Of a stretch of 64,000 nucleotides of DNA, positions 656 to 59,295 are shown one piece after another (position 1 is the first letter of the stretch; each line of letters begins with the position of its first letter). This DNA is from a virus. Its lineage: Duplodnaviria; Heunggongvirae; Uroviricota; Caudoviricetes. The stretch lies in IMG/VR virus record IMGVR_UViG_3300044259_000028, positions 18,283 to 82,282 of that record; one strand, written 5' to 3'. A program made the position numbers and the translations under genes. Under the pieces are notes generated by a model that worked only from the letters and a program-made list of their open reading frames with translations, searched no databases and had not been told where the DNA came from.

Positions 656-731
656 GGTTCTGTAGTTAAACTGGTTATAACTATGGCTTGATAAGCCATC
701 ATTCCGTGTTCGATCCACGGTGGAACTACCA
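656..731 (+). tRNA. tRNA-Ile(GAT)
   Basis: 76 nt. Acceptor ggttctg/tggaact (4 WC + 3 G-U), D-stem gtta/taac with GG loop, anticodon arm atggc-TTGATAA-gccat, 4-nt variable, T-arm ccgtg-TTCGATC-cacgg, A-CCA. Confidence 0.6.
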
Positions 732-742
732 AGAATTCAGTC

Positions 743-817
743 ATCGTTTGAGCCAGATGGGACGGCAGGAGGTTTTGACCATTCTATGAACAGGTTCGAT
801 TCCTGTAAGCGGTGCCA
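743..817 (+). tRNA. tRNA-Gln(TTG) candidate
   Basis: 75 nt. Acceptor atcgttt/aagcggt (2 G-U), D-stem gcc/ggc with GG loop, anticodon loop TTTTGAC (anticodon TTG, like E. coli tRNA-Gln loop as recalled from memory; stem has one G-A mismatch), T-arm acagg-TTCGATT-cctgt, G-CCA. Confidence 0.5.
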
Positions 818-23342: not shown

Positions 23343-23385
23343 TAAAAGAAAAGCCCCAACACATTTCAGTGTCAGGGCTAATGTT
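23343..23385 (-). terminator. Terminator for the leftward transcription unit
   Basis: On the minus strand: agccctgacactgaaatgtgttggggct hairpin followed by tttcttttat. Confidence 0.5.
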
Positions 23386-24154: not shown

Positions 24155-24610
24155 TTATTCCTCCTTCAACCATAAAGTTGCATCAACTTCCCTAAAAACT
24201 TCTTGGAAGATTGCAGTTAGACGTTTAACGTCGAGATTACCAAGTCCACCACCGATCATAGGGAGATGAATAGGTTTATCTTTGAAATGCTTTACGACAG
24301 CTTGGCAGACAATGATAATCGCGTCATAGTCTGCATATTTGACGTTAGCATCTCGCCCGTAGAATTCCTGAGTAATCGCGTTGATGATTGTAGGACCTTC
24401 TACAGTTTGTACGGCAATAACTTGGCCGAGATGTAAGCCTTGTTCTTTCTGAACTTGTTTGTAGCCCTTATAAGCTTCTGGATAGTTCACTTTAACCAGT
24501 TTGGCAATACCACTGCCCATAACCCCTTGAGCATTACAGCCGTGGATGAATACGCAGTCTTGATCTTTGATCGCGTTAAAGATATCACCAACTTCAATTT
24601 TCAGAGTCAT
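24155..24610 (-). CDS. Macro domain protein (ADP-ribose binding or processing)
   Basis: GDIFNA...CVFIHGCNAQGVMGSGIAKLV and ...HLPMIGGGLGNLDV match macro-domain motifs. Confidence 0.75.
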   Translation of the reverse strand: MTLKIEVGDIFNAIKDQDCVFIHGCNAQGVMGSGIAKLVKVNYPEAYKGYKQVQKEQGLHLGQVIAVQTVEGPTIINAITQEFYGRDANVKYADYDAIIIVCQAVVKHFKDKPIHLPMIGGGLGNLDVKRLTAIFQEVFREVDATLWLKEE

Positions 24611-24851: not shown

Positions 24852-26054
24852 TTACTTGTTCAGAACGTACCAGCGCTTGCCAGTCTGAGCAGTGATGCCT
24901 GCATCGTACACACGCTTACCACTTGCACGAGCAGCAGAACGTGATGCGAAGTAGATACGAGTTGGCACAGGAGTCAGTGGCGAAGGAGTAGGCTTGTTGG
25001 TAGGGGCAACTTTAGGCAGTTGCACCACAACAGGTTTAGCAGCTTTACCAGCCACAGGGCCATTCAGGTACGCCGTATCAGCAGCAGTGAATGGTACACC
25101 AATTTTCTCCCAGTACACAATACCAGTACCACCAACCAGTTTACGATTAATCGAAGTCGACTGGATGAAGATATCGTAGTTACCGTGATCGCCGGGATGC
25201 AGACGTGCATTACCAACAGTTGGCAGACCGATCATACTACGAGCATCCGCGCCTGCATACACTTTACCGTTCTTACGGTCACGAACCAGAATCAGTTTGG
25301 TGTCTTGAACACGTGCTTCGGTTTTGGTCAGTTGATAGAACGCACTACCTTTCAGAAGGGTTTTGCCGGTGCTCATCTCAACAAACGGTTTGATTTCAAC
25401 GCCACCCATCGTAGCAGGCACGACAAACAGTTTGATTTCTTTCGATACGTCAATCAGTGATTTGGTATCAACTGCGGTTGCATCAGCGTAGAATACCGAC
25501 GACGAACGTACACCAGTTGCACGGGTAGCGTAGAATTTATCCAGCGCTGCGGTAGTTGCTTGCGTCGAAGCTTCCACACCTTTTTCAGTTTGATCCCATT
25601 CTTGAACGTTGCCACGAGGGACGCCAAGGTCACGGGACAGACGCTCAGCATGACCACGAGGAACACGGAATACGAAAGTCCAACGGTCAGTTGCAATCAG
25701 TTCACGAATCTTACGAGCCAGCGTAGCTTGGTTGTATTTCTTCGAATTGTTTTCTTCACCGTCAGTCGTGATGGTCAGAAGGAAGTTAACTTTTGGATCG
25801 TTATAGTCTGGAACAGCTTCGAACATCTCGATCAGGTCACCGACAGCATCGTACATCGCCGTATAACCGACAGCGGACCACTGTTTCTTCGGATGCAGGA
25901 CATGAGGATTCGAATTGACGATTTCACGTTTGACAGTGTAGTCAAAGCCTACAACCGACACGATAGTATCTTGCATGTATTTGGTAGCTGCATCTTTGAC
26001 AGCACCGATATTTGCGTTATAGTCACGCAGGGCAGCAGAACGCAGACTCGCCAT
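24852..26054 (-). CDS. Hypothetical protein with vWA-like FLLTITTDGEENN segment
   Basis: 400 aa with a Pro-rich linker near the C-terminus. No SD before the ATG. Confidence 0.45.
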   Translation of the reverse strand: MASLRSAALRDYNANIGAVKDAATKYMQDTIVSVVGFDYTVKREIVNSNPHVLHPKKQWSAVGYTAMYDAVGDLIEMFEAVPDYNDPKVNFLLTITTDGEENNSKKYNQATLARKIRELIATDRWTFVFRVPRGHAERLSRDLGVPRGNVQEWDQTEKGVEASTQATTAALDKFYATRATGVRSSSVFYADATAVDTKSLIDVSKEIKLFVVPATMGGVEIKPFVEMSTGKTLLKGSAFYQLTKTEARVQDTKLILVRDRKNGKVYAGADARSMIGLPTVGNARLHPGDHGNYDIFIQSTSINRKLVGGTGIVYWEKIGVPFTAADTAYLNGPVAGKAAKPVVVQLPKVAPTNKPTPSPLTPVPTRIYFASRSAARASGKRVYDAGITAQTGKRWYVLNK

Positions 26055-26200: not shown

Positions 26201-26410
26201 TTATTTCACAAAACTTTTCAAGGCCATCCAAATAGTTTTTCTTTGGATAAAGTTTCTGCCATCTGGTCCACAATGTCCTAGTTGCTGACGCTCTAAAGAA
26301 GCGAACCCGTATGCACTTCCATCGACAGGATCAAGTGTATGAGAACATTTAGAGTAAGTAGCGCCTACAAAGGAACCTTCGTACTTTTCACAATTTACAC
26401 AGAGTTTCAT
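26201..26410 (-). CDS. Small Cys-containing protein (zinc-ribbon-like)
   Basis: 69 aa, CVNCEK...CSH. Confidence 0.35.
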   Translation of the reverse strand: MKLCVNCEKYEGSFVGATYSKCSHTLDPVDGSAYGFASLERQQLGHCGPDGRNFIQRKTIWMALKSFVK

Positions 26411-28122
26411 TGCTTCAACCGTGCAACTACTTCTGCATAAGTAGTAGGATTGTACAGCTTACCATCTCGGAACACAACCTGCAATTCACCTTGTTCTTCT
26501 TGTACAGAATCCTGTTGATCGTACAGGACGTAATCATCACCCTCTTTCTCAACACGCAGCAAACCTTTCGCAGACTTCTTCACGCCGTTGTCAGTTGCAG
26601 GGTCTTTGAACAGTTCGCGTTGCTCACCATTTACGATACCGTAGGTAGCCTTAACAGCCATGCCGAAAGTATCACGAGTGATGTACTGATAGGTGTACGA
26701 ACCAATGCCGAACACAATATTACCAGCACTGAAACCTTTATCCATCAAGCGTTTCAGGATAGCTTCAGCACGTTCCAGTGTAATGCTGTCACCGTAGATC
26801 AGGCCCACACGCTGGTTCAGGGTCTTGAAACCTTTATCAGTAACAGTGCCACCGAAAATGTCCCACAGGCATTCTACAGCACCTTTCTGAGCAGGGGTTA
26901 GTTCCGCAGGTTCACAGGAGGAAATACTAGAACCGTCAATATAGTAATATTGTTTATCATAACGATTCCACTCAATGTAAGCCTCTACACGATAGATAAC
27001 ACCTTTTTGACGGAAGTAGCCAAAAGGACTCATATCTCCCATCTCACCGTGATCTGTACTAGAGCGGACTTCTTCTTCAAGTACTTCTTTTGCCCAGTCT
27101 TTCAAGTTATACTGTTCAGGAACGTCAACAATTTGCACAGTACCACAAATAATGTCAACAGGATCACCGCTATCAGGACGGAATACTACCTTAGCCTGAC
27201 CTAGTGCATTAACTTCACGAGCTAAGATTTCTTCTTTCAGAATGTTAGCAGTGTTAGTAATAACGTTCCAGAAGTCCCAAGTGTCAGAGACAATCGAAAC
27301 AATACCAGAAGGGTACAGTTCGGTAATCAGGCGACGGAAAGTTTGCACCTCGTCATCCTTACCACCCATACACATCACACTGTGTTCAGTCGCAGGAACA
27401 CTGCCACCTACCAGTTCCTTTTCAACATTAGCACCATAGTAAGTTTCCAGATAGTCAATCGCTGGTAACGTGTCAGTACCGTGACCGGCAGCGAACAGGT
27501 GACCAATAGTTTTGTACGCACCGCCGATACCTACCAGACCACGCATCGAGAAGTCGTGCAGCTGCCAGTCAGCGAATTGGATATCACTACCAGTAGCTTC
27601 TACATACTTATTCAGCAGGCGACGGTACTCATAGGCAATCGTTGCAATCGTAACTACCGGCCAGATTTCAGCCGACATAATAGTTTCGATGTAGTTCGTC
27701 AGCCAGAAGAATGCAGGGTGCGTGTTGTGGAAGGTTACGAACGGCACCTTGATATTTACACGAGTGCCTTCTGGCAACGCTTTAATACGCAGTGGCAGGT
27801 AACCCATATCATGTAGAGCAGCAATATGGTCAACACCGACAGCATCAGGGCCGAGGTAACAGTCCATGCGACGCTTGTATTCTGCAACAACAACATCCTT
27901 CGGGCGATTGAAGAAACCTTCGTTCCACGATTCGATCAGAAATTCCAGAACGAAACCTTGGATGCCAGCCACAACAACCTTATTGTCGTACAAGGAAGTC
28001 ATCTTTGCATGACCAGCCGAACGTGCAGTCAAATTGCTGTACACCAGTGTAGTACCTTCAGGATACTGAGGACCGTGACCGGTTTTGTAACCGTCAAGGG
28101 CCAGATGCGGTTTGATTTTCAT
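26407..28122 (-). CDS. Nicotinamide phosphoribosyltransferase-like (NadV/NAMPT family; NARP1 Namat candidate)
   Basis: Likely start MKIKPHLALDGYKTGHG (RBS GAAAGG). NAMPT family motifs throughout. 571 aa. Confidence 0.8.
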   Translation of the reverse strand: MKIKPHLALDGYKTGHGPQYPEGTTLVYSNLTARSAGHAKMTSLYDNKVVVAGIQGFVLEFLIESWNEGFFNRPKDVVVAEYKRRMDCYLGPDAVGVDHIAALHDMGYLPLRIKALPEGTRVNIKVPFVTFHNTHPAFFWLTNYIETIMSAEIWPVVTIATIAYEYRRLLNKYVEATGSDIQFADWQLHDFSMRGLVGIGGAYKTIGHLFAAGHGTDTLPAIDYLETYYGANVEKELVGGSVPATEHSVMCMGGKDDEVQTFRRLITELYPSGIVSIVSDTWDFWNVITNTANILKEEILAREVNALGQAKVVFRPDSGDPVDIICGTVQIVDVPEQYNLKDWAKEVLEEEVRSSTDHGEMGDMSPFGYFRQKGVIYRVEAYIEWNRYDKQYYYIDGSSISSCEPAELTPAQKGAVECLWDIFGGTVTDKGFKTLNQRVGLIYGDSITLERAEAILKRLMDKGFSAGNIVFGIGSYTYQYITRDTFGMAVKATYGIVNGEQRELFKDPATDNGVKKSAKGLLRVEKEGDDYVLYDQQDSVQEEQGELQVVFRDGKLYNPTTYAEVVARLKQ

Positions 28123-28123
28123 A

Positions 28124-28357
28124 TTAGAATACACCTTTCTCTTGTTTGATTTTACCCTCACTTTTAGAAAGTTTAAATGGGAAATTAAGATTAACACCGT
28201 CGAATCGTTGATATTTTCCTTCCCCAGTGACTGAAAGCAAATACCCTGCCTCCATTTCTACACCATCGATATGGGTAGCTTTCAAAGCAACACTACCGCC
28301 TAGAACTTCTAGATCGAAGGTGATTTTCTTTCCGTTAATCGTTGTAGTAACACTCAT
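28124..28357 (-). CDS. Hypothetical small protein
   Basis: 77 aa beta-rich ORF between the NAMPT-like and Prs-like genes. Confidence 0.4.
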   Translation of the reverse strand: MSVTTTINGKKITFDLEVLGGSVALKATHIDGVEMEAGYLLSVTGEGKYQRFDGVNLNFPFKLSKSEGKIKQEKGVF

Positions 28358-28369
28358 TTTCTTTTCTCC

Positions 28370-29242
28370 TTAAATAAGTTGGATCAATTTGTTATCCAGC
28401 AGTTCTGGTTTGCCCATAAAGTTGGATACGTAGATTTTATCTATGAAACCATCGAACACTTCTAGACCAGCCGAGAAGATGCCGTGGGTAACATACAGAC
28501 TAATCTTACGATCCTCGTTTGTAGGATAGTTTACATCAGCTTTAATGGCTTTTGCAAGCTCAATAAAGGTGCGCCCACCGTCGCAAATATCATCTACAAT
28601 CAAGAATTCCTTATGCGGAGTTACACCGAAAGGTGGGCGGATAGGATCAAGCAACGATGTGCGCTCAATCTTACCGGTTGCTACATTCCGAACCTTCGTT
28701 GCTCGGATTACGGAATCATACCCGAGTTGTTTAGCGAAGTCAAACACTTTCTTTTCTGCACCTGCATCCGGGGAAATAACCGCAGTGTTTTCAGGCTTGC
28801 AGTAGTTTCCGATATGCCGCGCACAGAATGTCAGTGGATGCTGGAATAAATTATTAATCAATGCAGCACCTACCGGCGAGTGGATATCATGACAGATAAC
28901 ACGTTCGAAGTCAAGGGCGTTAATAAAATCTGCAACAACTTTCACAGACAAACTTTCACCAACATTACATACACGATCTTGACGAGCATAAGGTAGATAT
29001 GGCATCTCTAAGACAAACTTGAATCGTGCATAGAACAGACGACGGGCAGCATCTACCACCAATGCCAGATCAAATAGATCACTGTTGTTCTTAAAGTTGA
29101 ATACGATGCGTGCACGTGGATTAATTTCGAAAGACTGTAGACCATCTGGTGCATCAATACGAATACACGATTCACCAGCAGGAAATACAGTCTTAGTAAT
29201 TTGGTATTCCTTACCACTAATGTAAAGTTTAATATTCTCCAT
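28370..29242 (-). CDS. Ribose-phosphate pyrophosphokinase-like (Prs family; NARP1 Adps candidate)
   Basis: PRPP-binding loop IVDDICDGGRTF and ...VTHGIFSAG match Prs family. Confidence 0.75.
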   Translation of the reverse strand: MENIKLYISGKEYQITKTVFPAGESCIRIDAPDGLQSFEINPRARIVFNFKNNSDLFDLALVVDAARRLFYARFKFVLEMPYLPYARQDRVCNVGESLSVKVVADFINALDFERVICHDIHSPVGAALINNLFQHPLTFCARHIGNYCKPENTAVISPDAGAEKKVFDFAKQLGYDSVIRATKVRNVATGKIERTSLLDPIRPPFGVTPHKEFLIVDDICDGGRTFIELAKAIKADVNYPTNEDRKISLYVTHGIFSAGLEVFDGFIDKIYVSNFMGKPELLDNKLIQLI

Positions 29243-29790
29243 TACGTTTCCTCTCGTTGAATTTCAAGCATACGACGAATACGCCACAATGCTAAATCTT
29301 TGTCAGTTGTGGAAGACTCAATACCAGTAGTTTCATATCCATCTTCATCATAAATTACAGTAGAGTCATGATGTTCTGCGTCGAAAGCACCCCTACCTCG
29401 CTCTTGAAACAAACATTCAAAACTATTCTCACCAAACAGTGCATCAAGGTCGGCATGATTGAAGTTATGAATGTCCCACAGACTTACACCATTCATAGCA
29501 ATAGTGTTACTATCGTTACCGAAATGTAGCCCTTGTGCATTGAAGAATGGATGCGAAGCTGCTAATCCTACCGAACAGTATAGTGTACCACATTCTCTTT
29601 CTGAACGAAATCGTGCAAGGTCGAGTAGATGCTCAGGATAGCTTGTAATAAGTTTTCGTAAGAATACAAGATTCTCAATAATTTTATCTTTGTTCATAGT
29701 TTCACCTTTTAAATATTTTTCACGCCATAGGCGATAAGTGTTCCATTGGTCAGTCATTGTAGCGTTTTGCAATTTCAATAGCTCGATCAA
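29242..29790 (-). CDS. Hypothetical protein
   Basis: 182 aa, ATGA coupling to the upstream gene. Confidence 0.4.
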   Translation of the reverse strand: MIELLKLQNATMTDQWNTYRLWREKYLKGETMNKDKIIENLVFLRKLITSYPEHLLDLARFRSERECGTLYCSVGLAASHPFFNAQGLHFGNDSNTIAMNGVSLWDIHNFNHADLDALFGENSFECLFQERGRGAFDAEHHDSTVIYDEDGYETTGIESSTTDKDLALWRIRRMLEIQREET

Positions 29791-30067
29791 AACCCTCCAT
29801 CACCTCTGCATGCGTATGAGAGTCATTATATGGGCCGATTGCCCCGAAAGTGTCAAAACCACATCTCAGGATTCTAGCAGATTTCTCAATAACAAAACGA
29901 TCACTGTTTACAGCTAGCAGTGCGCCATACGAACAGAAGCAACGTGCTAGGTCACTACTATACACCACTTCATTGCCTTGACCGTCTCGCGCACATGTGC
30001 CTTGGGTCCACTTGTCATGCGTGCTAATAAGCTGTTTAGCTTTGATAAGATGCTCAGAGGTTTTCAT
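29750..30067 (-). CDS. Hypothetical protein
   Basis: 105 aa. Confidence 0.35.
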   Translation of the reverse strand: MKTSEHLIKAKQLISTHDKWTQGTCARDGQGNEVVYSSDLARCFCSYGALLAVNSDRFVIEKSARILRCGFDTFGAIGPYNDSHTHAEVMEGFDRAIEIAKRYND

Positions 30068-30141: not shown

Positions 30142-30615
30142 CTATTCATCCGGTAAAATAATTTCAACACCCTTTGCAATCAAGCTGTCGTAAAGATCAA
30201 CACTGATATTCAATGGGAACAGTATAACACGTTTTTCAAGCTTTAGCATCTGTTCCACCATATTTAATGAACCAGTGGATTTGCCATCCCAAATCACTAA
30301 CGCACAGTCACCTTCTTCCGCCATTTCAGCATTTCTCCAGTGGCCTGCTAGTGCATTGTACTTTTCGCCATTGTAGCGTGTTTTGACAACAGCGCCTTTA
30401 GCCTTAATATTACTCCATTTTGCAGGACGTTTCAATACCTTTAGACCATTACGTTCTGCGAATTCTTCACCTAGCTTGTCAGCACCTTCTGCCTCACCTG
30501 AAATTACTATAATGTCTTTACCATAATCCTTCCACAGGCCACTAAGGACAATGGCCTCACGTATAAGTGCATACGTTTTGATACTACGACTTCCTGCAAT
30601 GATTACTTTATACAT
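30142..30615 (-). CDS. SLOG-superfamily Rossmann-fold protein (DUF2493/YpsA/DprA-like)
   Basis: MYKVIIAGSRS...ISGEAEGADKLGEEFA pattern. Confidence 0.45.
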   Translation of the reverse strand: MYKVIIAGSRSIKTYALIREAIVLSGLWKDYGKDIIVISGEAEGADKLGEEFAERNGLKVLKRPAKWSNIKAKGAVVKTRYNGEKYNALAGHWRNAEMAEEGDCALVIWDGKSTGSLNMVEQMLKLEKRVILFPLNISVDLYDSLIAKGVEIILPDE

Positions 30616-31783: not shown

Positions 31784-32332
31784 TTATGTTCCGTGGCGTT
31801 TTGTGTAGCCACCTATTTCTTCTAGCTTACTAAATCGAAAATCGCAAGCCATCTTGAACGCTTCTTCCCCAAATTTCTTTAAAGAAAAAGCCCTCTTTCT
31901 CACTCTACCATTTTCACACCAGCAAGCACACCAATAACCTTGCCCACTCTTTAGATCGTAAGATACACCGCCCACTCCACTAGTGTTTGTAGAGAATAGT
32001 TTTTGATTTCTCATATTTCCTAATTGAGTTGTAAGATTTAGATTTGATAAAGCATTGTTTGTAGGTACACCGTCGATGTGGTCTACAACCTCATTATCAC
32101 TTAATTGCCCGTTGTGCATCTCAAAAATTACTCTATGAATCAAATATTGCTTTCCACCTTTTCCAACCACATAATAGCCTATGGTTTTAGAAAAAGAACC
32201 TGCCACACTTCCAGCCTTTATCTTTAAGATTGAGAGATTTCTCCCTGTATATACATCAACTTTCCATCTTAAGTAGGTAGGGCTAGACTCATCATAATAG
32301 AAGTAATCTGTCCAATCCATTAGTAGACCCAA
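31784..32332 (-). CDS. HNH homing endonuclease with AP2 DNA-binding domain
   Basis: VVDHIDGVPTNNALSNL (HNH_3) plus GVGGVSYDLKSGQGYWCACW...RVRKRAFS (AP2-like). Sits immediately downstream of nrdB. Confidence 0.65.
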   Translation of the reverse strand: MGLLMDWTDYFYYDESSPTYLRWKVDVYTGRNLSILKIKAGSVAGSFSKTIGYYVVGKGGKQYLIHRVIFEMHNGQLSDNEVVDHIDGVPTNNALSNLNLTTQLGNMRNQKLFSTNTSGVGGVSYDLKSGQGYWCACWCENGRVRKRAFSLKKFGEEAFKMACDFRFSKLEEIGGYTKRHGT

Positions 32333-33276
32333 TCACCTGATAAAGAGTCTTTACTGTAGGCTGTAATAGTTGTTTCGAAGAAATTACCTAGAACTCCGTC
32401 ACCTGTAATCTGCTCTACAAACGGTAAAGGATTTTCAGTAATACCGAATTGAGGTTTAAAGCCTAACTGTTGCATGCGATAGTCACAGACATACCTAATA
32501 TAGTTTTTCAAGGCTTGTTTGTCAAGCTTCTTAGGAACGTCCACGCCATAGCACAGATCAATAAAATTATCCTCTAGGTTTACAACCTGTCGTGCAGTTT
32601 CATAGATAGAGCGTTTCAAGTCTTCTGTGACTACTGAAGGGTTTTCTTCAACAAAAATTCTGAACAACTCAGTAAGTCCTTCTACGTGCATACTTTCATC
32701 AATCACACTCCACTGATTTACACTGACCATTCCCGGTAGTAGGCCCAGTTGTGAGAAATTTAAAAGCATAGCAAATGATGCAAAAAGGTTTACACCTTCC
32801 ATCAACACTTGTTTTGCTAGGTACTCTGCACGTCCTTTATTAGAGCGTAAATCTGTTGACTCAATCATGAAATCATGTTTAGCTTTCATCTCGTCATACG
32901 AAAGAAACTCTGACATAAATTCTAGGCTATCGTAGCCTAGAGTGTCATTAAGTCTTTTGTATCCTAGCATGTGTGTAGTCTCACGGCTTGCGAAAGATAA
33001 CAGCATCATACGGGCGTCTGCATTTTTAAAGATTGGTAAGAGCTTATCTACGTACCCTGCACAAACATCTGTGTCAGCTTGTGTAAATAAACGTAGAACC
33101 ATTTTAATATATTGTTTTTGTTTCTCTGAAACACTACCATCTTTCCATTGACCAACATCTTGATTCATATCTGCTTCTGCTGGCAACCAATGTGCACGTT
33201 CATGTTTCTCAAGAATCTCTTGAAGCTTCACATAACGTGGAACAAAGATTTCTGTTGCTTCTGTAATTTTACTCAT
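32320..33276 (-). CDS. nrdB: Ribonucleotide reductase class Ia small (beta) subunit
   Basis: Ferritin-like di-iron carboxylate motifs. 318 aa. Adjacent to nrdA. Confidence 0.85.
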   Translation of the reverse strand: MSKITEATEIFVPRYVKLQEILEKHERAHWLPAEADMNQDVGQWKDGSVSEKQKQYIKMVLRLFTQADTDVCAGYVDKLLPIFKNADARMMLLSFASRETTHMLGYKRLNDTLGYDSLEFMSEFLSYDEMKAKHDFMIESTDLRSNKGRAEYLAKQVLMEGVNLFASFAMLLNFSQLGLLPGMVSVNQWSVIDESMHVEGLTELFRIFVEENPSVVTEDLKRSIYETARQVVNLEDNFIDLCYGVDVPKKLDKQALKNYIRYVCDYRMQQLGFKPQFGITENPLPFVEQITGDGVLGNFFETTITAYSKDSLSGDWVY

Positions 33277-33279
33277 TCA

Positions 33280-35100
33280 TCATCCTCCGCAAGCTACACA
33301 TTCTTCACCTGACCAATCGACAAGTGCTTTTCTTTCAATTACCTTTGCATTGTCCGCATTACCTTCACGTTCAGTGCGTAGATAGTACATTGTCAATACC
33401 TCTTCACTCTTAAGAAACTTCAAATGAACAGAGTTTACATATTGACGACTACTCCCATAAGGGAAATATACGTTAAGTGATTGTGCCTGATGTTGCTTAC
33501 CTAGCACCTTATAACGCTGGTCAGCTTGCTCAATAGCCCAGTGCATATCAGTCTCCATAGCAACTTTATAAACATCTTTTTCAGAAGGAGAAAGGAAATC
33601 TAAGTGATCTACTTTACCGTCATTCTTGTTAATACTTTCCCATGTTTCATCTGTATTTTTATTATAACTTTCTAGTAATTTCTCTAGATGAGCATTTTTG
33701 ACAGTAAAGTTTCCAGCCCTTGTGGACTTAATAAAAATATTTCGGAAATAAGGCTCAATGGAAGGAGACGCGTTTAAGATATCTGCGCTATTAGCATTAG
33801 GTGCAATAGCGGTAGTACGACTATTACGCAATCCAGTACCTTTCATGTCTTCAGGCTCTCCACGTTCAATAGCTAGTTTCCTACTTTGAGCTTCAGAACG
33901 TTGAGCAATCAACCCATAAACCTTGTTCGTATGTTGAATAGCACTGTTAAATCCTCCACCTTCAAATGGAATATTTTTACTTTGCAAGTATCCATGCCAA
34001 CCTAGTGAACCAATACCAATAGCACGTTCACGTTCTGCACTATATTTAGCTTTGTGCAAAGTCTCAGGAGCATTATCAATAAAGTATTGTAGTACATTGT
34101 CTAGGAATGTTGTTAAGTCCTCTACAATCTTAGTATCCTTCCACTCTTCGAACTTCTCAATATTTAAACTAGAAAGGCAGCATACAAATGTACGTTCCTC
34201 ATCAGTCGGAAGAAGAATTTCACTACATAGGTTACTTCCTTTAATTTTCAATCCTAATTCTTTTTGGGTTTCTGGTAATTTCTCATTTGCGTGGTCGATC
34301 TTAACCAAAAACGGCTCACCAGTAAGCGCGCGGGTTTCTAAAATCTCTTCCCACACTTTACGAGCATCTAGCACTTCTCGTACCTCTTTACTATGAGGAC
34401 ATACTAATTCATAGGTCGTGCCTTCAAGTACGGCGTTAATGAATTTACGAGTAATATTAACACCTGTATGAAACTGTGTACGGTTATCACTACGGCGCTT
34501 AGTATCTCCACCGGGCTTACGAAAACGAATATGCTCAATAATATCAGGGTGATCTACATTTAGGTATGCAGCTAAAGCACCACGACGATTTTGCTGTCGG
34601 AAATAGCCAATAGCACTATCCATAACCTTTTCAAATGGAATTGGTCCGACAGCCTTACCGCCTACTGCACGAATACTCATGTGCGCGCCCGTGCCTCCGC
34701 CAGACATAGATAAGTCTGCTAACTCTTCAATAGCCTTCACCTGACCTTTTGCAGTATCAGGAACGTCGAATGCGAAACAACTAATAGGTTGTCCATAGCT
34801 CTTACCTACTTGAATCCACTTATTATCCTCCCAATATCCTTTGGGTGCGTTAGAAAGTACAGGACTAGCATACATGAAATATCCTTTATAGACATAATCA
34901 TAAATACGTTGTGCTAATTCTAAGTCACCTGCACAAAATGCGATAGCAGGGCGAGCCAATGCTTGGGAAATTGTTTCATCCTCTTTCAGATAGAAATCTT
35001 CTAGAAGTGTTTTAGAGAAATCCGTTACGTATGTAGGATTTTCTGTATTTATTTTAATTTGAGAAATGATAAACTCCTTAAAATGAAAAGAGGAACCCAA
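33280..35100 (-). CDS. nrdA: Ribonucleotide reductase large (alpha) subunit
   Basis: GSNLCSEILLP active-site region, C-terminal Cys pair, 606 aa (no ATP cone). Confidence 0.85.
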   Translation of the reverse strand: MGSSFHFKEFIISQIKINTENPTYVTDFSKTLLEDFYLKEDETISQALARPAIAFCAGDLELAQRIYDYVYKGYFMYASPVLSNAPKGYWEDNKWIQVGKSYGQPISCFAFDVPDTAKGQVKAIEELADLSMSGGGTGAHMSIRAVGGKAVGPIPFEKVMDSAIGYFRQQNRRGALAAYLNVDHPDIIEHIRFRKPGGDTKRRSDNRTQFHTGVNITRKFINAVLEGTTYELVCPHSKEVREVLDARKVWEEILETRALTGEPFLVKIDHANEKLPETQKELGLKIKGSNLCSEILLPTDEERTFVCCLSSLNIEKFEEWKDTKIVEDLTTFLDNVLQYFIDNAPETLHKAKYSAERERAIGIGSLGWHGYLQSKNIPFEGGGFNSAIQHTNKVYGLIAQRSEAQSRKLAIERGEPEDMKGTGLRNSRTTAIAPNANSADILNASPSIEPYFRNIFIKSTRAGNFTVKNAHLEKLLESYNKNTDETWESINKNDGKVDHLDFLSPSEKDVYKVAMETDMHWAIEQADQRYKVLGKQHQAQSLNVYFPYGSSRQYVNSVHLKFLKSEEVLTMYYLRTEREGNADNAKVIERKALVDWSGEECVACGG

Positions 35101-58137: not shown

Positions 58138-59295
58138 TTAACCTTTTTTCAGAAGATATTCATTGCTGATAGCTTTGAACGAGAAGTCACAGCCACAGTT
58201 TTTGAACACCACGCCTTCACGCATCACACCAGCATTATCACCCGGACCCGAGGCGTATGTCAAGCATTTACTCACAACGTCATCTACACTCACTTCACCT
58301 TCTGGCAGGCCCAGTACATCACGCAGAGTGCCAGTAGCCAGAACGGTGACATGGTTAAGGCCAAGGATACCTACAGCCTCTTGACGGCTTGCAGGGCTAC
58401 TATACATCTGTTTATCGATGTTGAAAATATCAAAGATATGGAATTCCACATCTTTAACCTTCTCGTAGTTACCCTGAATGTCGGGAGCAACTACTTCTCC
58501 TTGCAAAGCATAGCTATCCTGTTCGAACTTCGCATACGCCTCCTTCATTGCAGCCAGTACAGGTGCAGCAGCTTTATGGAAATTGCTATCGCCAGTCAGA
58601 GGCAGCATGATGTTACGGCTGCAAATGCCATATACAGGCTCATCAGGCTTACGCACGAAGAAAGCCTTGACCTTCTCCCACAAGGACAGTCGCTGTTTGC
58701 TCAAAGCTTTCGCAGCTTTATAGTGTTCACTTTCAGGAGTCACAATAAACACAGTCATCGAGCTACCATCTTTCTTCATGGTCACTTCGAATTCTTCATC
58801 CAGTGCATTCACAACCATATGGCCGTAGTTCTGGATACGTTCCTGATCTGTCTTAGGAATAAACACAGGGAAGCGCTTGATACCTTGTGCCTGTACTTGA
58901 CGACCCGGAACAGGATTGTCAGGCATTTCCCACTTCTTCACACCCAGCACTTCGGTAACATCGTCACCTTCATTCAGCGAATCACCGTTAGGGACGATGG
59001 ATAATGGCAGTACCAGACCTTGCGAGATTTGTTTACGCAGTTTAATCGTTTTAAGGCGTTCGCCTTTGACACCTTCGAACTCTTTAGGTTCGTGACCTTC
59101 TTTAGTCAGGAACGGGGCTACCTCAGTAGGAACCCATGAGTCGATTTCGAAGTAACAAACCATGTCACCAATAGAGAATTCACTTTTCTTGACGACGACT
59201 GGCCAACCTTTAATCATTGCAACTTCGATCTTGTCAGCGCCAGCGATAGGCAGCAGATCACGAACTTTTTCAATAGTTACCAATTTACGAGTCAT
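58138..59295 (-). CDS. ATP-dependent RNA ligase-like protein (N-terminal tRNA-binding-type OB domain plus nucleotidyltransferase, DraRnl-like)
   Basis: N-terminal LVTIEKV..LPIAGADKIEVAMIKGWPVVVKK OB pattern. Motif I TMKKDGSS (KxDG). Confidence 0.45.
   Translation of the reverse strand: MTRKLVTIEKVRDLLPIAGADKIEVAMIKGWPVVVKKSEFSIGDMVCYFEIDSWVPTEVAPFLTKEGHEPKEFEGVKGERLKTIKLRKQISQGLVLPLSIVPNGDSLNEGDDVTEVLGVKKWEMPDNPVPGRQVQAQGIKRFPVFIPKTDQERIQNYGHMVVNALDEEFEVTMKKDGSSMTVFIVTPESEHYKAAKALSKQRLSLWEKVKAFFVRKPDEPVYGICSRNIMLPLTGDSNFHKAAAPVLAAMKEAYAKFEQDSYALQGEVVAPDIQGNYEKVKDVEFHIFDIFNIDKQMYSSPASRQEAVGILGLNHVTVLATGTLRDVLGLPEGEVSVDDVVSKCLTYASGPGDNAGVMREGVVFKNCGCDFSFKAISNEYLLKKG

What the first reader, a model, noticed from the sequence alone, without database searches (positions are those of the whole stretch)
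26407..29242. NAMPT-like plus Prs-like gene pair: candidate NAD+ reconstitution (NARP1-type) anti-defence pathway
A 571-aa NadV/NAMPT-family protein is separated by one small ORF from a 290-aa ribose-phosphate pyrophosphokinase-family protein with the PRPP-binding loop DDICDGGRTF. From the literature as recalled, this pairing matches the NARP1 architecture: Adps (Prs homolog, ADPR to ADPR-PP) plus Namat (NAMPT homolog, ADPR-PP plus Nam to NAD+). Phages are reported to use it to rebuild NAD+ after NADase-based immunity such as Thoeris. The alternative is classical salvage (Prs makes PRPP, NadV makes NMN), but no NMNAT is seen nearby.
Basis: partly seen in the sequence, partly recalled or inferred. 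Interest (0 to 1): 0.75.

Follow-up and report, generated by a model that had tools for sequence, protein, structure and literature searches.

The report
Phage NAD+ rebuilding operon (NARP1)
This uncultured phage carries the already described two-enzyme NARP1 pathway, which rebuilds NAD+ from the ADP-ribose and nicotinamide left behind when bacterial immune systems destroy NAD+; it is a clear but ordinary new example of a common phage counter-defence.

Summary
On the minus strand, three translationally coupled genes occupy 26407..29242: a 290-aa Prs-like gene, a 77-aa ORFan and a 571-aa NadV/Nampt-like gene.

The NARP1 reading is supported by tests against experimentally validated references.
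- **Large protein (Namat).** It matches the SPbetaL1 Namat crystal structure far better than Nampt (504 vs about 198 bits; Foldseek TM 0.93). It keeps every catalytic-core residue. It carries the published Namat-specific adenine-clamp motif, GSYTYQYITRD; Nampt enzymes have GG[AG]LLQ..xRD.
- **Small protein (Adps).** It has the features of Adps. The catalytic Lys and acceptor residues are conserved. The PP loop DDICDGGRTF is identical to the Felixounavirus (Bas63 genus) type. The N-terminal helix and C-terminal alpha11-12 module of true Prs are missing. Its score on the curated Prs model is 101 bits, against 98-119 for validated Adps and 423 for E. coli Prs.
- **Context.** All 19 informative viral relatives have the same gene pair. 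No NMNAT or Nudix gene was found on 81 kb of the contig.

A Macro-domain gene four genes downstream may be the published Adpp phosphatase extension (NARP1-AP), but this is unproven. Enzyme activity is inferred, not shown.

The system is a new member of a known, abundant kind, so interest is low to moderate.

The parts
28370..29242 (-). adps: ADP-ribose pyrophosphokinase (Prs-like, 290 aa). PP loop DDICDGGRTF at 28565..28594; predicted catalytic Lys183.
   Evidence: Identity is 34-37% to validated or validated-genus Adps (ICP1, Gary-like Achelous, Felixounavirus Alf5), against 28% to E. coli Prs. ICP1 residues F18, R87, H121, D161, K185, D212, D213 and D216 are all conserved. The tail after THG is 39 residues, against 67 in E. 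coli Prs. TIGR01251 gives 101.5 bits (cut-off 113), compared with 98-119 for validated Adps and 423 for E. coli Prs.
28124..28357 (-). orf77: small all-beta ORFan inserted between adps and namat; function unknown; probably variable cargo, not a core part.
   Evidence: It has a strong AAGGAG Shine-Dalgarno sequence and coupling to namat. One homologue (45% identity, E 2e-20) sits in the same slot in L012. The 5.8-billion-protein search returned only itself. It has no Pfam or PHROG hit. The single-sequence AF2 model has pLDDT 59.
26407..28122 (-). namat: nicotinamide ADP-ribose transferase (Nampt-like, 571 aa). SCH motif GSYTYQYITRD at 26671..26703; SCL RSAGH at 28009..28023; catalytic His247 at 27382..27384; about 83-aa inserted domain at 26890..27138.
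   Evidence: It scores 504.6 bits to SPbetaL1 Namat (PDB 9w5x/9w5w), against 198 for human and 181 for Xcc Nampt. All NAM/NMN/AMP-contact residues map, except R40 to G37. It falls within the Namat clade in the NJ tree. The AF2 model has pLDDT 91.6, and the top Foldseek hits are Namat with TM 0.93.
24155..24610 (-). Macro-domain protein (151 aa): candidate Adpp-like ADPR-1''-phosphate phosphatase (NARP1-AP extension), or a DarG-like ADP-ribosyl hydrolase. It lies four genes downstream of namat on the same strand.
   Evidence: It passes Pfam Macro (24.1 bits, cut-off 22). It falls in PHROG 335 'phosphatase' (E 1.3e-37), as does Gary-type Adpp. It is 25% identical (E 1e-7) to Achelous gp176, which is 98.7% identical to Gary Adpp. 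PDB matches are 5m3i at 4e-10 and Poa1p (6LFQ series) at about 5e-6. It matches the NCBIfam DarG model at E 4.7e-13, below cut-off. A Macro gene lies within 6 kb of NARP1 in 6 of 20 viral relatives.
23352..23379 (-). Terminator-like hairpin (11-bp stem plus T run): the only one on the minus strand downstream of the cluster, and a possible end of the transcription unit.
   Evidence: The pattern scan found no other minus-strand terminator-like site between 31600 and 23400. This is a consensus match only.

Best explanation
The genes adps-orf77-namat form a NARP1 NAD+ reconstitution operon of a roughly 82-90 kb uncultured tailed phage. The phage is distantly related, by terminase, to Pseudomonas phages with genomes of about 95-99 kb.

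The proposed mechanism has three steps.
1. A host NADase-type defence (Thoeris, DSR1/2, SIR2-HerA, SEFIR, short pAgo-Sir2 and similar) cleaves NAD+ into ADP-ribose and nicotinamide.
2. Adps uses ATP to pyrophosphorylate the distal ribose of ADPR, giving ADPR-PP plus AMP.
3. Namat then displaces the pyrophosphate with nicotinamide and regenerates NAD+ directly, with no NMN intermediate and no NMNAT.

What is shown here: gene structure, homology, residue-level and motif-level signatures, fold, synteny, and the absence of NMNAT. What is inferred: the two enzymatic activities and the anti-defence phenotype, by transfer from SPbetaL1, Bas63, FADO, ICP1 and Gary.

The Macro gene downstream may add ADPR-1''-P to ADPR conversion (NARP1-AP). 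I put that extension at about 0.35-0.4.
For: **Namat**
- It scores 504.6 bits (E 3e-150) to the crystal-structure Namat 9w5x/9w5w. H. ducreyi NadV scores 414, human Nampt 198 and Xcc Nampt 181.
- The SCH motif GSYTYQYITRD fits the published Namat consensus GS-X-phi-X-phi-X-phi-TRD, with aromatics at positions 3 and 7 (PMC12774641). Xcc has GGALLQKVDRD, phage Nampts have GG[AG]LLQ..xRD, and HdNadV has GAQTYQRNTRD.
- The catalytic core residues (SPbetaL1 D13, Y15, F189, R192, D215, A242, R306, D308) and the catalytic His are all conserved.
- The NJ tree places it inside the clade bracketed by SPbetaL1, Felixounavirus, ICP1 and Gary-like Namats. A long branch separates that clade from the Nampts linked to NMNAT.
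- The AF2 model (pLDDT 91.6) is closest to Namat, TMt 0.93-0.94.

**Adps**
- All acceptor and catalytic residues of ICP1 Adps are conserved, including K185, which aligns with K183. The PP loop is identical to the Felixounavirus type. The Prs N-terminal helix and C-terminal alpha11-12 module are absent (PMC13586617).
- The TIGR01251 score is in the validated-Adps range and about four-fold below real Prs.
- BLASTP gives 131 bits to ICP1 and Gary-like Adps, against 71 to E. coli Prs.

**Context**
- The three genes are translationally coupled.
- An Adps homologue lies upstream of Namat in 19 of 19 IMG/VR relatives with upstream DNA, and in 5 of 5 bacterial loci.
- No NMNAT or Nudix gene was found on 81.4 kb.
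- PHROG 12872 is matched by both proteins in different halves, so fusions of the two exist.
Against: - No biochemistry or phenotype exists for this locus.
- The variable clamp loop (SCL) has Gly37 where the published rule expects Arg, Lys or Tyr at its third position. His38 follows, as in Gary-like and phiA8-29 Namats, and 36 of 36 clade members without Arg/Lys at position 3 have His at position 4. This suggests His38 is the stacking residue, but it is not proven.
- ICP1 adenine contacts F92 and F223 are Cys92 and Glu228 here. The validated-genus Felixounavirus protein also differs at both, and SPbetaL1 at F223, with an alignment gap at F92.
- Similarity to SPbetaL1 Adps (67 bits) is no higher than to E. 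coli Prs (71 bits). My Adps tree has only one Prs outgroup, so clade membership rests on features rather than on a rooted phylogeny.
- Namat enzymes retain PRPP-to-NMN activity in vitro.
- HdNadV, solved in complex with NMN, is a fairly close relative, so the broad clade is not functionally uniform.
- A few kb of the genome may be unseen. The contig is 82.3 kb, whereas relatives are 88-92 kb.
Confidence: 0.85

Rival explanations
1. Classical PRPP-dependent nicotinamide salvage. The small protein would be a true ribose-phosphate pyrophosphokinase making PRPP. The large one would be a NadV/Nampt making NMN. A host enzyme (NadD/NadR) or an unseen phage NMNAT would complete NAD+ synthesis, as a NARP2-like or housekeeping boost.
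For: - Both proteins hit the Prs and NadV families. The large one passes NCBIfam NF006629 (538.6 bits, cut-off 405).
- Namat enzymes can still use PRPP in vitro.
- H. ducreyi NadV (9ke8, crystallised with NMN) is a fairly close relative at 414 bits.
- The closest public homologue (62-63% identity) is the Acinetobacter chromosomal 'NadV'.
Against: - The small protein fails every curated Prs cut-off. It scores like validated Adps (101 vs 98-119 bits) and unlike Prs (423).
- It lacks the Prs N-terminal helix and C-terminal alpha11-12 module, and it has the Adps PP loop.
- The large protein carries the aromatic adenine-clamp motif that Nampt, phage NARP2-type enzymes and HdNadV all lack.
- No NMNAT was found on 81 kb. 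In the literature, 94% of phages with a Nampt-type enzyme carry an Nmnat.
- The Acinetobacter 'NadM' neighbour is really an NrtR regulator (NUDIX + NrtR_WHD), not an NMNAT. The Acinetobacter pair itself has Adps/Namat features.
Confidence: 0.07
2. Extended pathway NARP1-AP. The downstream Macro-domain protein (24155..24610) would be an Adpp-type ADPR-1''-phosphate phosphatase. It would feed ADPR into Adps/Namat, so the phage would also overcome aRES (RES-domain) defence. This extends the best explanation rather than excluding it.
For: - The Macro protein passes the Pfam threshold.
- It shares PHROG 335 with the validated Gary-type Adpp.
- A full-length alignment to Gary-type Adpp gives 25% identity, E 1e-7.
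- It matches yeast Poa1p, an ADPR-1''-P phosphatase, at E about 5e-6. The authors name Poa1p as the closest characterised homologue of Adpp.
- The gene is on the same strand, with no terminator-like site in between.
- A Macro gene lies within 6 kb of NARP1 in 6 of 20 viral relatives, including distant ones.
Against: - The gene lies four genes downstream of namat, outside the paper's criterion of within two genes.
- The best solved-structure match is 5m3i, and the NCBIfam DarG model matches at E 4.7e-13. From memory, 5m3i is the DarG macrodomain. Gary-type Adpp instead matches TARG1/OARD1 best, so the two are different subfamilies.
- PHROG 335-type macro proteins occur in about 1500-2200 phage records. 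I did not test how many of those carry NARP1, so the link may not be specific.
Confidence: 0.35

Closest known systems
NARP1 of Bacillus phage SPbetaL1 and E. coli phage Bas63 (Adps + Namat; Osterman et al., bioRxiv 10.1101/2024.02.11.579819; Namat structures 9w5w/9w5x, PMC12774641)
   Same: - Gene order is adps then namat.
- The Namat catalytic core is fully conserved, and so is the SCH adenine-clamp motif.
- Identity to SPbetaL1 Namat is 52%, with predicted-fold TM 0.93.
- The Adps PP loop is identical to the Felixounavirus (Bas63 genus) type.
- The window Namat has a large insertion after RPDSGDPV-IICG, as does the 593-aa Felixounavirus Namat.
   Different: - A 77-aa ORFan sits between the two genes.
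- The SCL has Gly-His instead of Arg (SPbetaL1) or Lys-Trp (Felixounavirus).
- Identity to SPbetaL1 Adps is only 28-30%.
- The phage is uncultured, and its terminase is only about 40% identical to any phage in the collection searched.
Vibrio phage ICP1 Adps (structures and kinetics, PMC13586617)
   Same: - Identity is 34-36%.
- F18, R87, H121, D161, K185, D212, D213 and D216 are all conserved.
- The alpha11-12 module is missing.
- The length is similar (290 vs 280 aa).
   Different: - F92 is Cys and F223 is Glu.
- The PP loop reads CDGGRT rather than CDGAAS.
NARP1-AP of Vibrio phage Gary (Adps-Adpp-Namat; bioRxiv 10.64898/2026.01.28.702374)
   Same: - A NARP1 pair occurs with a small Macro-domain protein of the same PHROG (335).
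- The Namat SCL has His at its fourth position, as in the Gary-like Achelous Namat.
   Different: - In Gary the Macro gene lies between adps and namat. Here that slot holds orf77, and the Macro gene is four genes downstream.
- The Macro proteins are only 25% identical and have different best PDB relatives.
NARP2 (Nampt + Nmnat, KVP40 type) and cellular Nampt/NadV (human, Xanthomonas, H. ducreyi)
   Same: They share the NAPRTase/Nampt fold and the same nicotinamide- and ribose-phosphate-binding core.
   Different: - The SCH-equivalent motif is of the Nampt type (GG[AG]LLQ..xRD).
- Identity is only about 27-31%.
- An 8-aa segment (the window's NEGFFNRP) is absent.
- Phage examples carry an NMNAT-Nudix or Nudix gene next door (ACP17, PG07). 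None is present here.
Bacterial Adps/Namat-like pairs beside NrtR (Acinetobacter, Burkholderiaceae, Novimethylophilus)
   Same: The Acinetobacter protein is the closest sequence relative of the window Namat (62-63% identity). These loci have the same Adps/Namat signatures and the same gene order.
   Different: They are chromosomal and lie next to an NrtR-family regulator (NUDIX + NrtR_WHD; by the literature as I recall it, NrtR responds to ADP-ribose). They lack the Namat insertion and presumably do housekeeping ADPR recycling rather than counter-defence.

Membership tests
Namat (NARP1 second enzyme) | Nampt-like catalytic core: nicotinamide and ribose-phosphate contacts (SPbetaL1 D13, Y15, F189, R192, D215, A242, R306, D308) and the catalytic His | tested here: met
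   All are identical in the window protein: D10, Y12, F191, R194, D217, A244, R315, D317 and His247 in ATEHS.
Namat (NARP1 second enzyme) | [quoted passage not shown] | tested here: met
   The window has GSYTYQYITRD (residues 474-484). Y476 aligns with F392 and Y480 with Y396. Nampt-type proteins have G/A and Q/M/H/K at these positions, and HdNadV has Q and R.
Namat (NARP1 second enzyme) | Selectivity-clamp loop (SCL) whose third residue is Arg, Lys or Tyr, with stacking by that residue or by the fourth | tested here: inconclusive
   The window SCL is S-A-G37-H38, so the third residue is Gly. In 63 close relatives the position 3/4 pairs are either R/K-L (22) or x-H (36 of 36 without R/K). Gary-like and phiA8-29 Namats have K-H. 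His38 is a plausible stacker, but this was not modelled with ligand or as a dimer.
Namat (NARP1 second enzyme) | Closer to validated Namats than to Nampts in sequence, tree and fold | tested here: met
   Scores are 504 bits against 198 and 181. It lies inside the Namat clade of the NJ tree. Foldseek ranks 1-7 are Namat, with TMt 0.92-0.94. KVP40 Nampt itself was not included.
Namat (NARP1 second enzyme) | Prefers ADPR-PP over PRPP and makes NAD+ directly | not testable with these tools
   This needs purified enzyme and LC-MS.
Adps (NARP1 first enzyme) | PRPS-like fold with conserved acceptor and catalytic residues (ICP1 F18, R87, H121, D161, K185, D212, D213, D216) | tested here: met
   The window has F20, R87, H121, D159, K183, D217, D218 and D221.
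Adps (NARP1 first enzyme) | Remodelled PP loop conserved among Adps (DDICDG-type rather than the Prs DDM(I/V)DTGGT) | tested here: met
   The window has DDICDGGRTF, identical to Felixounavirus Adps. ICP1 has DDICDGAASF and E. coli Prs has DDMIDTGGTL.
Adps (NARP1 first enzyme) | Loss of the C-terminal alpha11-alpha12 filament/regulatory module of Prs | tested here: met
   There are 39 residues after the THG motif. Other Adps have 27-54 and E. coli Prs has 67. The 16-aa N-terminal helix of Prs is also absent.
Adps (NARP1 first enzyme) | Aromatic adenine contacts F92 and lid F221/F223 of ICP1 Adps | tested here: not met
   The window has C92, F226 and E228. These positions also vary elsewhere: Alf5 has M and E, and SPbetaL1 has an alignment gap and K. 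They are therefore not family-defining.
Adps (NARP1 first enzyme) | Separate from canonical Prs (Adps clade); Namat within ten genes | tested here: met
   TIGR01251 gives 101.5 bits, against 98-119 for validated Adps and 423 for E. coli Prs. All Prs equivalog cut-offs are failed. Namat is two genes away. A rooted tree with many Prs outgroups was not made.
Adps (NARP1 first enzyme) | Converts ADPR + ATP to ADPR-PP and does not make PRPP | not testable with these tools
   This needs an enzyme assay.
NARP2 (Nampt + Nmnat) | Nampt-clade enzyme plus an Nmnat gene in the same genome | tested here: not met
   The enzyme has the Namat-type motif and clade. No CTP_transf_like or NUDIX hit was found in the Pfam scans of more than 40 window ORFs, in the precomputed Pfam hits on record for the flanks, or by tblastn over 81.4 kb.
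NARP3 (PnuC-like transporter + NadR-like enzyme) | PnuC and NadR homologues present | tested here: not met
   No such Pfam hits appeared among the scanned ORFs or the flank genes. Not every small ORF was scanned.
NARP1-AP (NARP1 + Adpp phosphatase) | Macro-domain gene (PF01661, PF14519 or PF20016) within two genes of the NARP1 pair | tested here: not met
   A PF01661 Macro gene is present, but four genes downstream of namat. The intervening genes are orf69, a 400-aa protein and orf79.
NARP1-AP (NARP1 + Adpp phosphatase) | Macro protein homologous to validated Adps-associated Adpp / Poa1p | tested here: inconclusive
   It shares PHROG 335 with Gary-type Adpp, with 25% identity (E 1e-7), and matches Poa1p at E about 5e-6. 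The best PDB and NCBIfam matches, however, are 5m3i and DarG-like.

The most novel reading that the evidence does not exclude
The NARP1 pair may be the core of a larger island directed at ADP-ribose, with several layers. A standalone SLOG/YspA protein upstream would bind or process cADPR-type Thoeris signals. The ORFan orf77 would be an accessory factor placed in the same slot where other phages keep Adpp. A divergent Macro protein downstream would recover ADPR from non-canonical products (ADPR-1''-P) or reverse DarT-type ADP-ribosylation. In this reading the Gly-His clamp loop and the folded 83-aa insertion in Namat would tune substrate choice or partner binding.
Probability: 0.12. Interest if true: 0.5.

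Novelty: new member of a known kind. Interest (0 to 1): 0.25.

Why it matters
The locus adds a well-supported NARP1 example from an uncultured phage lineage of about 90 kb. It shows that the sequence rules published in 2026 (the Namat SCH motif, the Adps truncations and the PP loop) can separate NARP1 from ordinary 'Prs + NadV' annotations using sequence alone. Automatic annotation still calls these genes ribose-phosphate pyrophosphokinase and nicotinamide phosphoribosyltransferase.

Two small by-products may help refine those rules. One is the mutually exclusive R/K-L versus x-H forms of the clamp loop. The other is the highly variable slot between adps and namat. Nothing here changes the understanding of the pathway.

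Tried and rejected
- **Near-identical DNA in the phage collection:** none found.
- **orf77:** there was no tblastn hit in the phage collection, no IMG/VR pattern hit, and only itself in the protein database. The single-sequence AF2 model had pLDDT 59, so no fold search was made.
- **IMG/VR pattern search with Adps:** nothing found.
- **'NadM' next to the closest homologue.** I first took this as support for classical salvage. I rejected that because the protein is NrtR (NUDIX + NrtR_WHD). As a consequence, two of my three 'NMNAT' tblastn queries contain only Nudix domains. Only the ACP17 query has a real NMNAT domain.
- **First bootstrap tree run:** it timed out. The rerun gave topologies, but support values were not printed, so I cite topology only.
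- **PDB sequence searches** for the 400-aa neighbour and for the SLOG protein gave nothing.
- **KVP40 Nampt** could not be retrieved cheaply. I used ACP17, Aes508, PG07, Xcc, human and H. ducreyi enzymes as the Nampt references instead.
- **ICP1 Adps structures** were not found by the sequence search of the PDB copy.
- **Promoter-like sites** in the cluster were not enriched over shuffles (25 vs 17.5 +/- 4.2), so I make no promoter claim.

Full report
**Observation**

The minus strand between 26407 and 29242 carries three tightly packed ORFs.
- A 290-aa Prs-like ORF at 28370..29242.
- A 77-aa ORF at 28124..28357.
- A NadV/Nampt-like ORF that runs to a GTG at 28197, but whose homologues all begin at the ATG at 28122, giving 571 aa.

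The DNA shows an AAGGAG Shine-Dalgarno sequence before orf77. The stop of the upstream gene overlaps the adps ATG (TAATG). The orf77 stop lies one base before the namat ATG. The three genes are therefore translationally coupled.

Pfam gives NAPRTase (E 1.7e-33) and Pribosyltran_N/Pribosyltran for the two enzymes. The loop DDICDGGRTF is at 28565..28594.

**What discriminates NARP1 from classical salvage**

The held literature defines NARP1 and gives residue-level criteria.
- Osterman et al. showed that Adps makes ADPR-PP from ADPR + ATP and gives no product in the ribose-5-phosphate (Prs-type) reaction. Namat prefers ADPR-PP over PRPP and makes NAD+ directly. In their data, 97% of Adps-clade genes have a Namat neighbour, and 859 phage genomes (4.3%) carry the pair. 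Nampt-type phage enzymes (NARP2) instead co-occur with Nmnat.
- Lan et al. (PMC12774641) solved SPbetaL1 Namat and defined a selectivity clamp. [quoted passage not shown] It also has a variable loop (SCL) that supplies one more stacking residue.
- Liu et al. (PMC13586617) solved ICP1 Adps. They listed its acceptor and catalytic residues, a remodelled PP loop, and loss of the C-terminal alpha11-12 module as family signatures.

**The large protein is a Namat**

*Solved structures.* The best matches are 9w5x/9w5w (504.6 bits), which the fold search labels 'Crystal structure of Namat'. Next come H. ducreyi NadV (414), human Nampt (198) and Xanthomonas Nampt (181).

*Alignment.* I aligned it with reference genes fetched from annotated phage records: SPbetaL1, Felixounavirus Alf5, ICP1 and the Gary-like Achelous. 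Alf5 is in the same genus as Bas63. I also included three Nampt-type phage enzymes, one of which (ACP17) sits beside an NMNAT-Nudix gene.
- Identity is 40-52% to the validated Namats and 27-31% to the Nampt type.
- Every nicotinamide, NMN and AMP contact residue of SPbetaL1 Namat is conserved, except R40.
- The helix motif reads GSYTYQYITRD. The Nampt type has GG[AG]LLQ..xRD, Xcc has GGALLQKVDRD, and HdNadV has GAQTYQRNTRD.

*Tree and fold.* An NJ tree puts the window protein inside the clade spanned by all validated Namats. An AlphaFold2 model built on 63 homologues has pLDDT 91.6. Its top seven Foldseek hits are the Namat chains (TMt 0.92-0.94), ahead of HdNadV and human NAMPT.

*The one deviation* is the SCL. 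The window has S-A-G37-H38, where the paper expects Arg, Lys or Tyr at the third position. In 63 close relatives, position pairs 3/4 are either R/K-L (22 sequences) or x-H (36 of 36 sequences lacking R/K). Gary-like and phiA8-29 Namats have K-H. This fits the paper's position-dependent stacking rule, with His38 as the stacker, but I could not model the dimer with ligand.

**The small protein is an Adps**

- It aligns at 34-37% identity with ICP1, Gary-like and Felixounavirus Adps, against 28% with E. coli Prs. The corresponding BLASTP scores are 131, 131 and 116 bits against 71.
- ICP1 residues F18, R87, H121, D161, K185, D212, D213 and D216 are all conserved. K185 aligns with K183.
- The PP loop DDICDGGRTF is identical to the Felixounavirus loop and unlike E. 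coli DDMIDTGGTL.
- The 16-residue N-terminal helix and the C-terminal alpha11-12 module of Prs are missing. There are 39 residues after THG, against 67 in E. coli.
- On the curated TIGR01251 Prs model it scores 101.5 bits, below the 113 cut-off. Validated or validated-genus Adps score 98.0, 98.5, 106.0 and 119.1, and E. coli Prs scores 422.7.
- F92 and F223 of ICP1 are not conserved here. The Felixounavirus protein also differs at both positions, and SPbetaL1 at F223, with an alignment gap at F92.
- Similarity to the Gram-positive SPbetaL1 Adps (67 bits) is no better than to Prs. My tree had a single Prs outgroup. Adps membership therefore rests on features, not on a rooted phylogeny.

**Context**

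- In 20 IMG/VR loci found with the Namat, all 19 that include upstream DNA have an Adps homologue just upstream.
- The three closest loci (64-65% Namat identity, from contigs of about 36, 89 and 91 kb) share a common gene order. L011 and L012 carry SLOG-Adps-Namat-400-aa protein-Macro. L013, which is truncated at its 5' end, starts within Adps and continues the same way.
- The slot between adps and namat is variable. The window has orf77, L011 has an unrelated orf70, and L012 has an orf77 homologue plus a lipoprotein-like ORF and an HNH/AP2 homing endonuclease. Thalassaviruses carry Adpp in this slot.
- orf77 is an ORFan. It has one 45%-identical homologue, and its single-sequence model was too poor to use.

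**NMNAT search**

- tblastn with an NMNAT-Nudix query and two Nudix queries found nothing in the window.
- Pfam scans of more than 40 ORFs found no cytidylyltransferase or NUDIX domain.
- Two look-ups extended the sequence by 8.9 kb and 8.5 kb, to 81.4 kb of a contig recorded as 82.3 kb. These also gave no such hit.

**The classical-salvage rival**

The closest public homologue (62% identity) lies in a record named 'Acinetobacter phage MD-2021a'. This looks like a chromosomal contig, and the pair there is followed by a gene annotated NadM. That gene is in fact an NrtR regulator (NUDIX + NrtR_WHD). The Acinetobacter pair itself has the Adps and Namat signatures. Four of five bacterial loci repeat the NrtR association. 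This removes the main support for the rival.

What remains is that Namats keep some PRPP activity, and that HdNadV, solved with NMN bound, is a moderately close relative lacking the aromatic clamp. I give the rival about 0.07.

**Possible extension: NARP1-AP**

A 151-aa Macro-domain gene lies at 24155..24610, four genes downstream on the same strand. No terminator-like site occurs before 23379..23352.

A 2026 preprint shows that 15% of NARP1 operons carry a Macro-domain ADPR-1''-P phosphatase (Adpp), which lets NARP1 overcome aRES.

In favour of the window Macro being an Adpp:
- It is in the same PHROG as Gary-type Adpp.
- It aligns to Gary-type Adpp over its full length (25% identity, E 1e-7).
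- It matches Poa1p.

Against:
- Its best structural-sequence match is 5m3i, which from memory is the M. tuberculosis DarG macrodomain.
- It matches the NCBIfam DarG model, whereas Adpp matches TARG1 best.
- It is outside the paper's two-gene window.

I rate the Adpp role at about 0.35-0.4.

**Comparison and novelty**

This is NARP1 as described in 2024, in an uncultured phage. Its terminase is only about 40% identical to Pseudomonas phages with genomes of about 95-99 kb. The family is very abundant: at least 8000 homologues at E <= 1e-20, and about 1560-2050 phage records carrying each gene.

It is a new member of a known kind. The minor peculiarities are the ORFan between the genes, the Gly-His clamp loop, a well-folded 83-aa insertion in Namat, and the distal Macro gene. 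The insertion's length varies from 10 to 90 residues among close relatives. These are worth a note but would not surprise a specialist.

Noticed in passing
window 24155..24610 (-): A Macro-domain protein lies four genes downstream of namat. It is in the same PHROG (335, 'phosphatase') as the validated Adpp of Vibrio phage Gary. Its best PDB and NCBIfam matches, however, are 5m3i (from memory, the DarG macrodomain) and DarG-like models. It could be an ADPR-1''-P phosphatase or an anti-DarT ADP-ribosyl hydrolase.
   Followed up: partly
window 30142..30615 (-); also L011 3646..4101, L012 2292..2753, L014 and L015: A standalone SLOG-family protein (Pfam YAcAr/YspA, E 7e-9) lies just upstream of the NARP1 cluster and recurs near NARP1 in four relatives. 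From general knowledge, the Thoeris effector ThsA senses cADPR signals through a SLOG domain, so a signal-binding (sponge) role is conceivable. This was not tested. It has no PDB sequence match.
   Followed up: partly
window 26890..27138 (-) (Namat residues 329-411): An 83-aa insertion follows the RPDSGDPV-IICG strand. It is predicted to be a confidently folded unit of one helix and a beta sheet (pLDDT mostly 90 or higher). The segment varies from 10 to 90 residues among 63 close relatives. Felixounavirus Namat (593 aa) has an insertion at the same site, whereas SPbetaL1 and Acinetobacter proteins lack it. Its function is unknown.
   Followed up: partly
window 28009..28023 (-) and alignment A3: The Namat clamp loop comes in two mutually exclusive forms in this clade. 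Either Arg/Lys is followed by Leu (22 sequences), or any other residue is followed by His (36 of 36). This may refine the published SCL rule.
   Followed up: yes
window 28124..28357 (-); L011 5766..5978; L012 4861..5988: The slot between adps and namat is a hotspot for variable cargo. It holds the ORFan orf77 in the window and an unrelated orf70 in L011. In L012 it holds an orf77 homologue plus a lipoprotein-like ORF and an HNH/AP2 homing endonuclease. In Thalassaviruses it holds Adpp.
   Followed up: partly
window 24852..26054 (-): A 400-aa protein of unknown function (PHROG 26613, no Pfam or PDB hit) contains a vWA-like TDGEENNS stretch. It is conserved between Namat and Macro in the three closest relatives (49-54% identity).
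   Followed up: partly
L002 (CAKLQF020000015.1), L032-L034, L036: Bacterial 'prs2-nadV' pairs carry Adps/Namat signatures. In L002, L032-L034 and L036 they sit next to an NrtR-family regulator (NUDIX + NrtR_WHD domains confirmed for L002). In L002 this regulator is mis-annotated as NadM. The L002 record, named as an Acinetobacter phage, looks like a chromosomal contig (ABC transporter, AraC regulator, efflux genes).
   Followed up: partly
PHROG 12872: One 547-position phage family profile is matched by Adps over its first half and by Namat over its second half. This indicates that natural Adps-Namat fusion proteins exist.
   Followed up: no
window 58138..59295 (-), tRNAs at 656..817 (+) and 42696..42766 (-); L039 2375..3595: The phage carries an RNA ligase (PHA02142 OB + RNA_ligase), an RtcB ligase in the upstream flank, and three tRNA genes (Ile, Gln, Lys). 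This set is typical of phages that repair or replace tRNAs cut by host anticodon nucleases.
   Followed up: no
window 31784..32332 (-): An HNH_3 + AP2 homing endonuclease lies next to the ribonucleotide reductase genes (32320..35100). A related endonuclease sits inside the NARP1 operon of L012.
   Followed up: no
window 29750..30067 (-) and 29242..29790 (-): A DUF6197 protein and a 182-aa protein with no family hit lie directly upstream of adps, and the latter is coupled to it. Both have homologues in the same place in L012, where the 182-aa gene appears duplicated.
   Followed up: no
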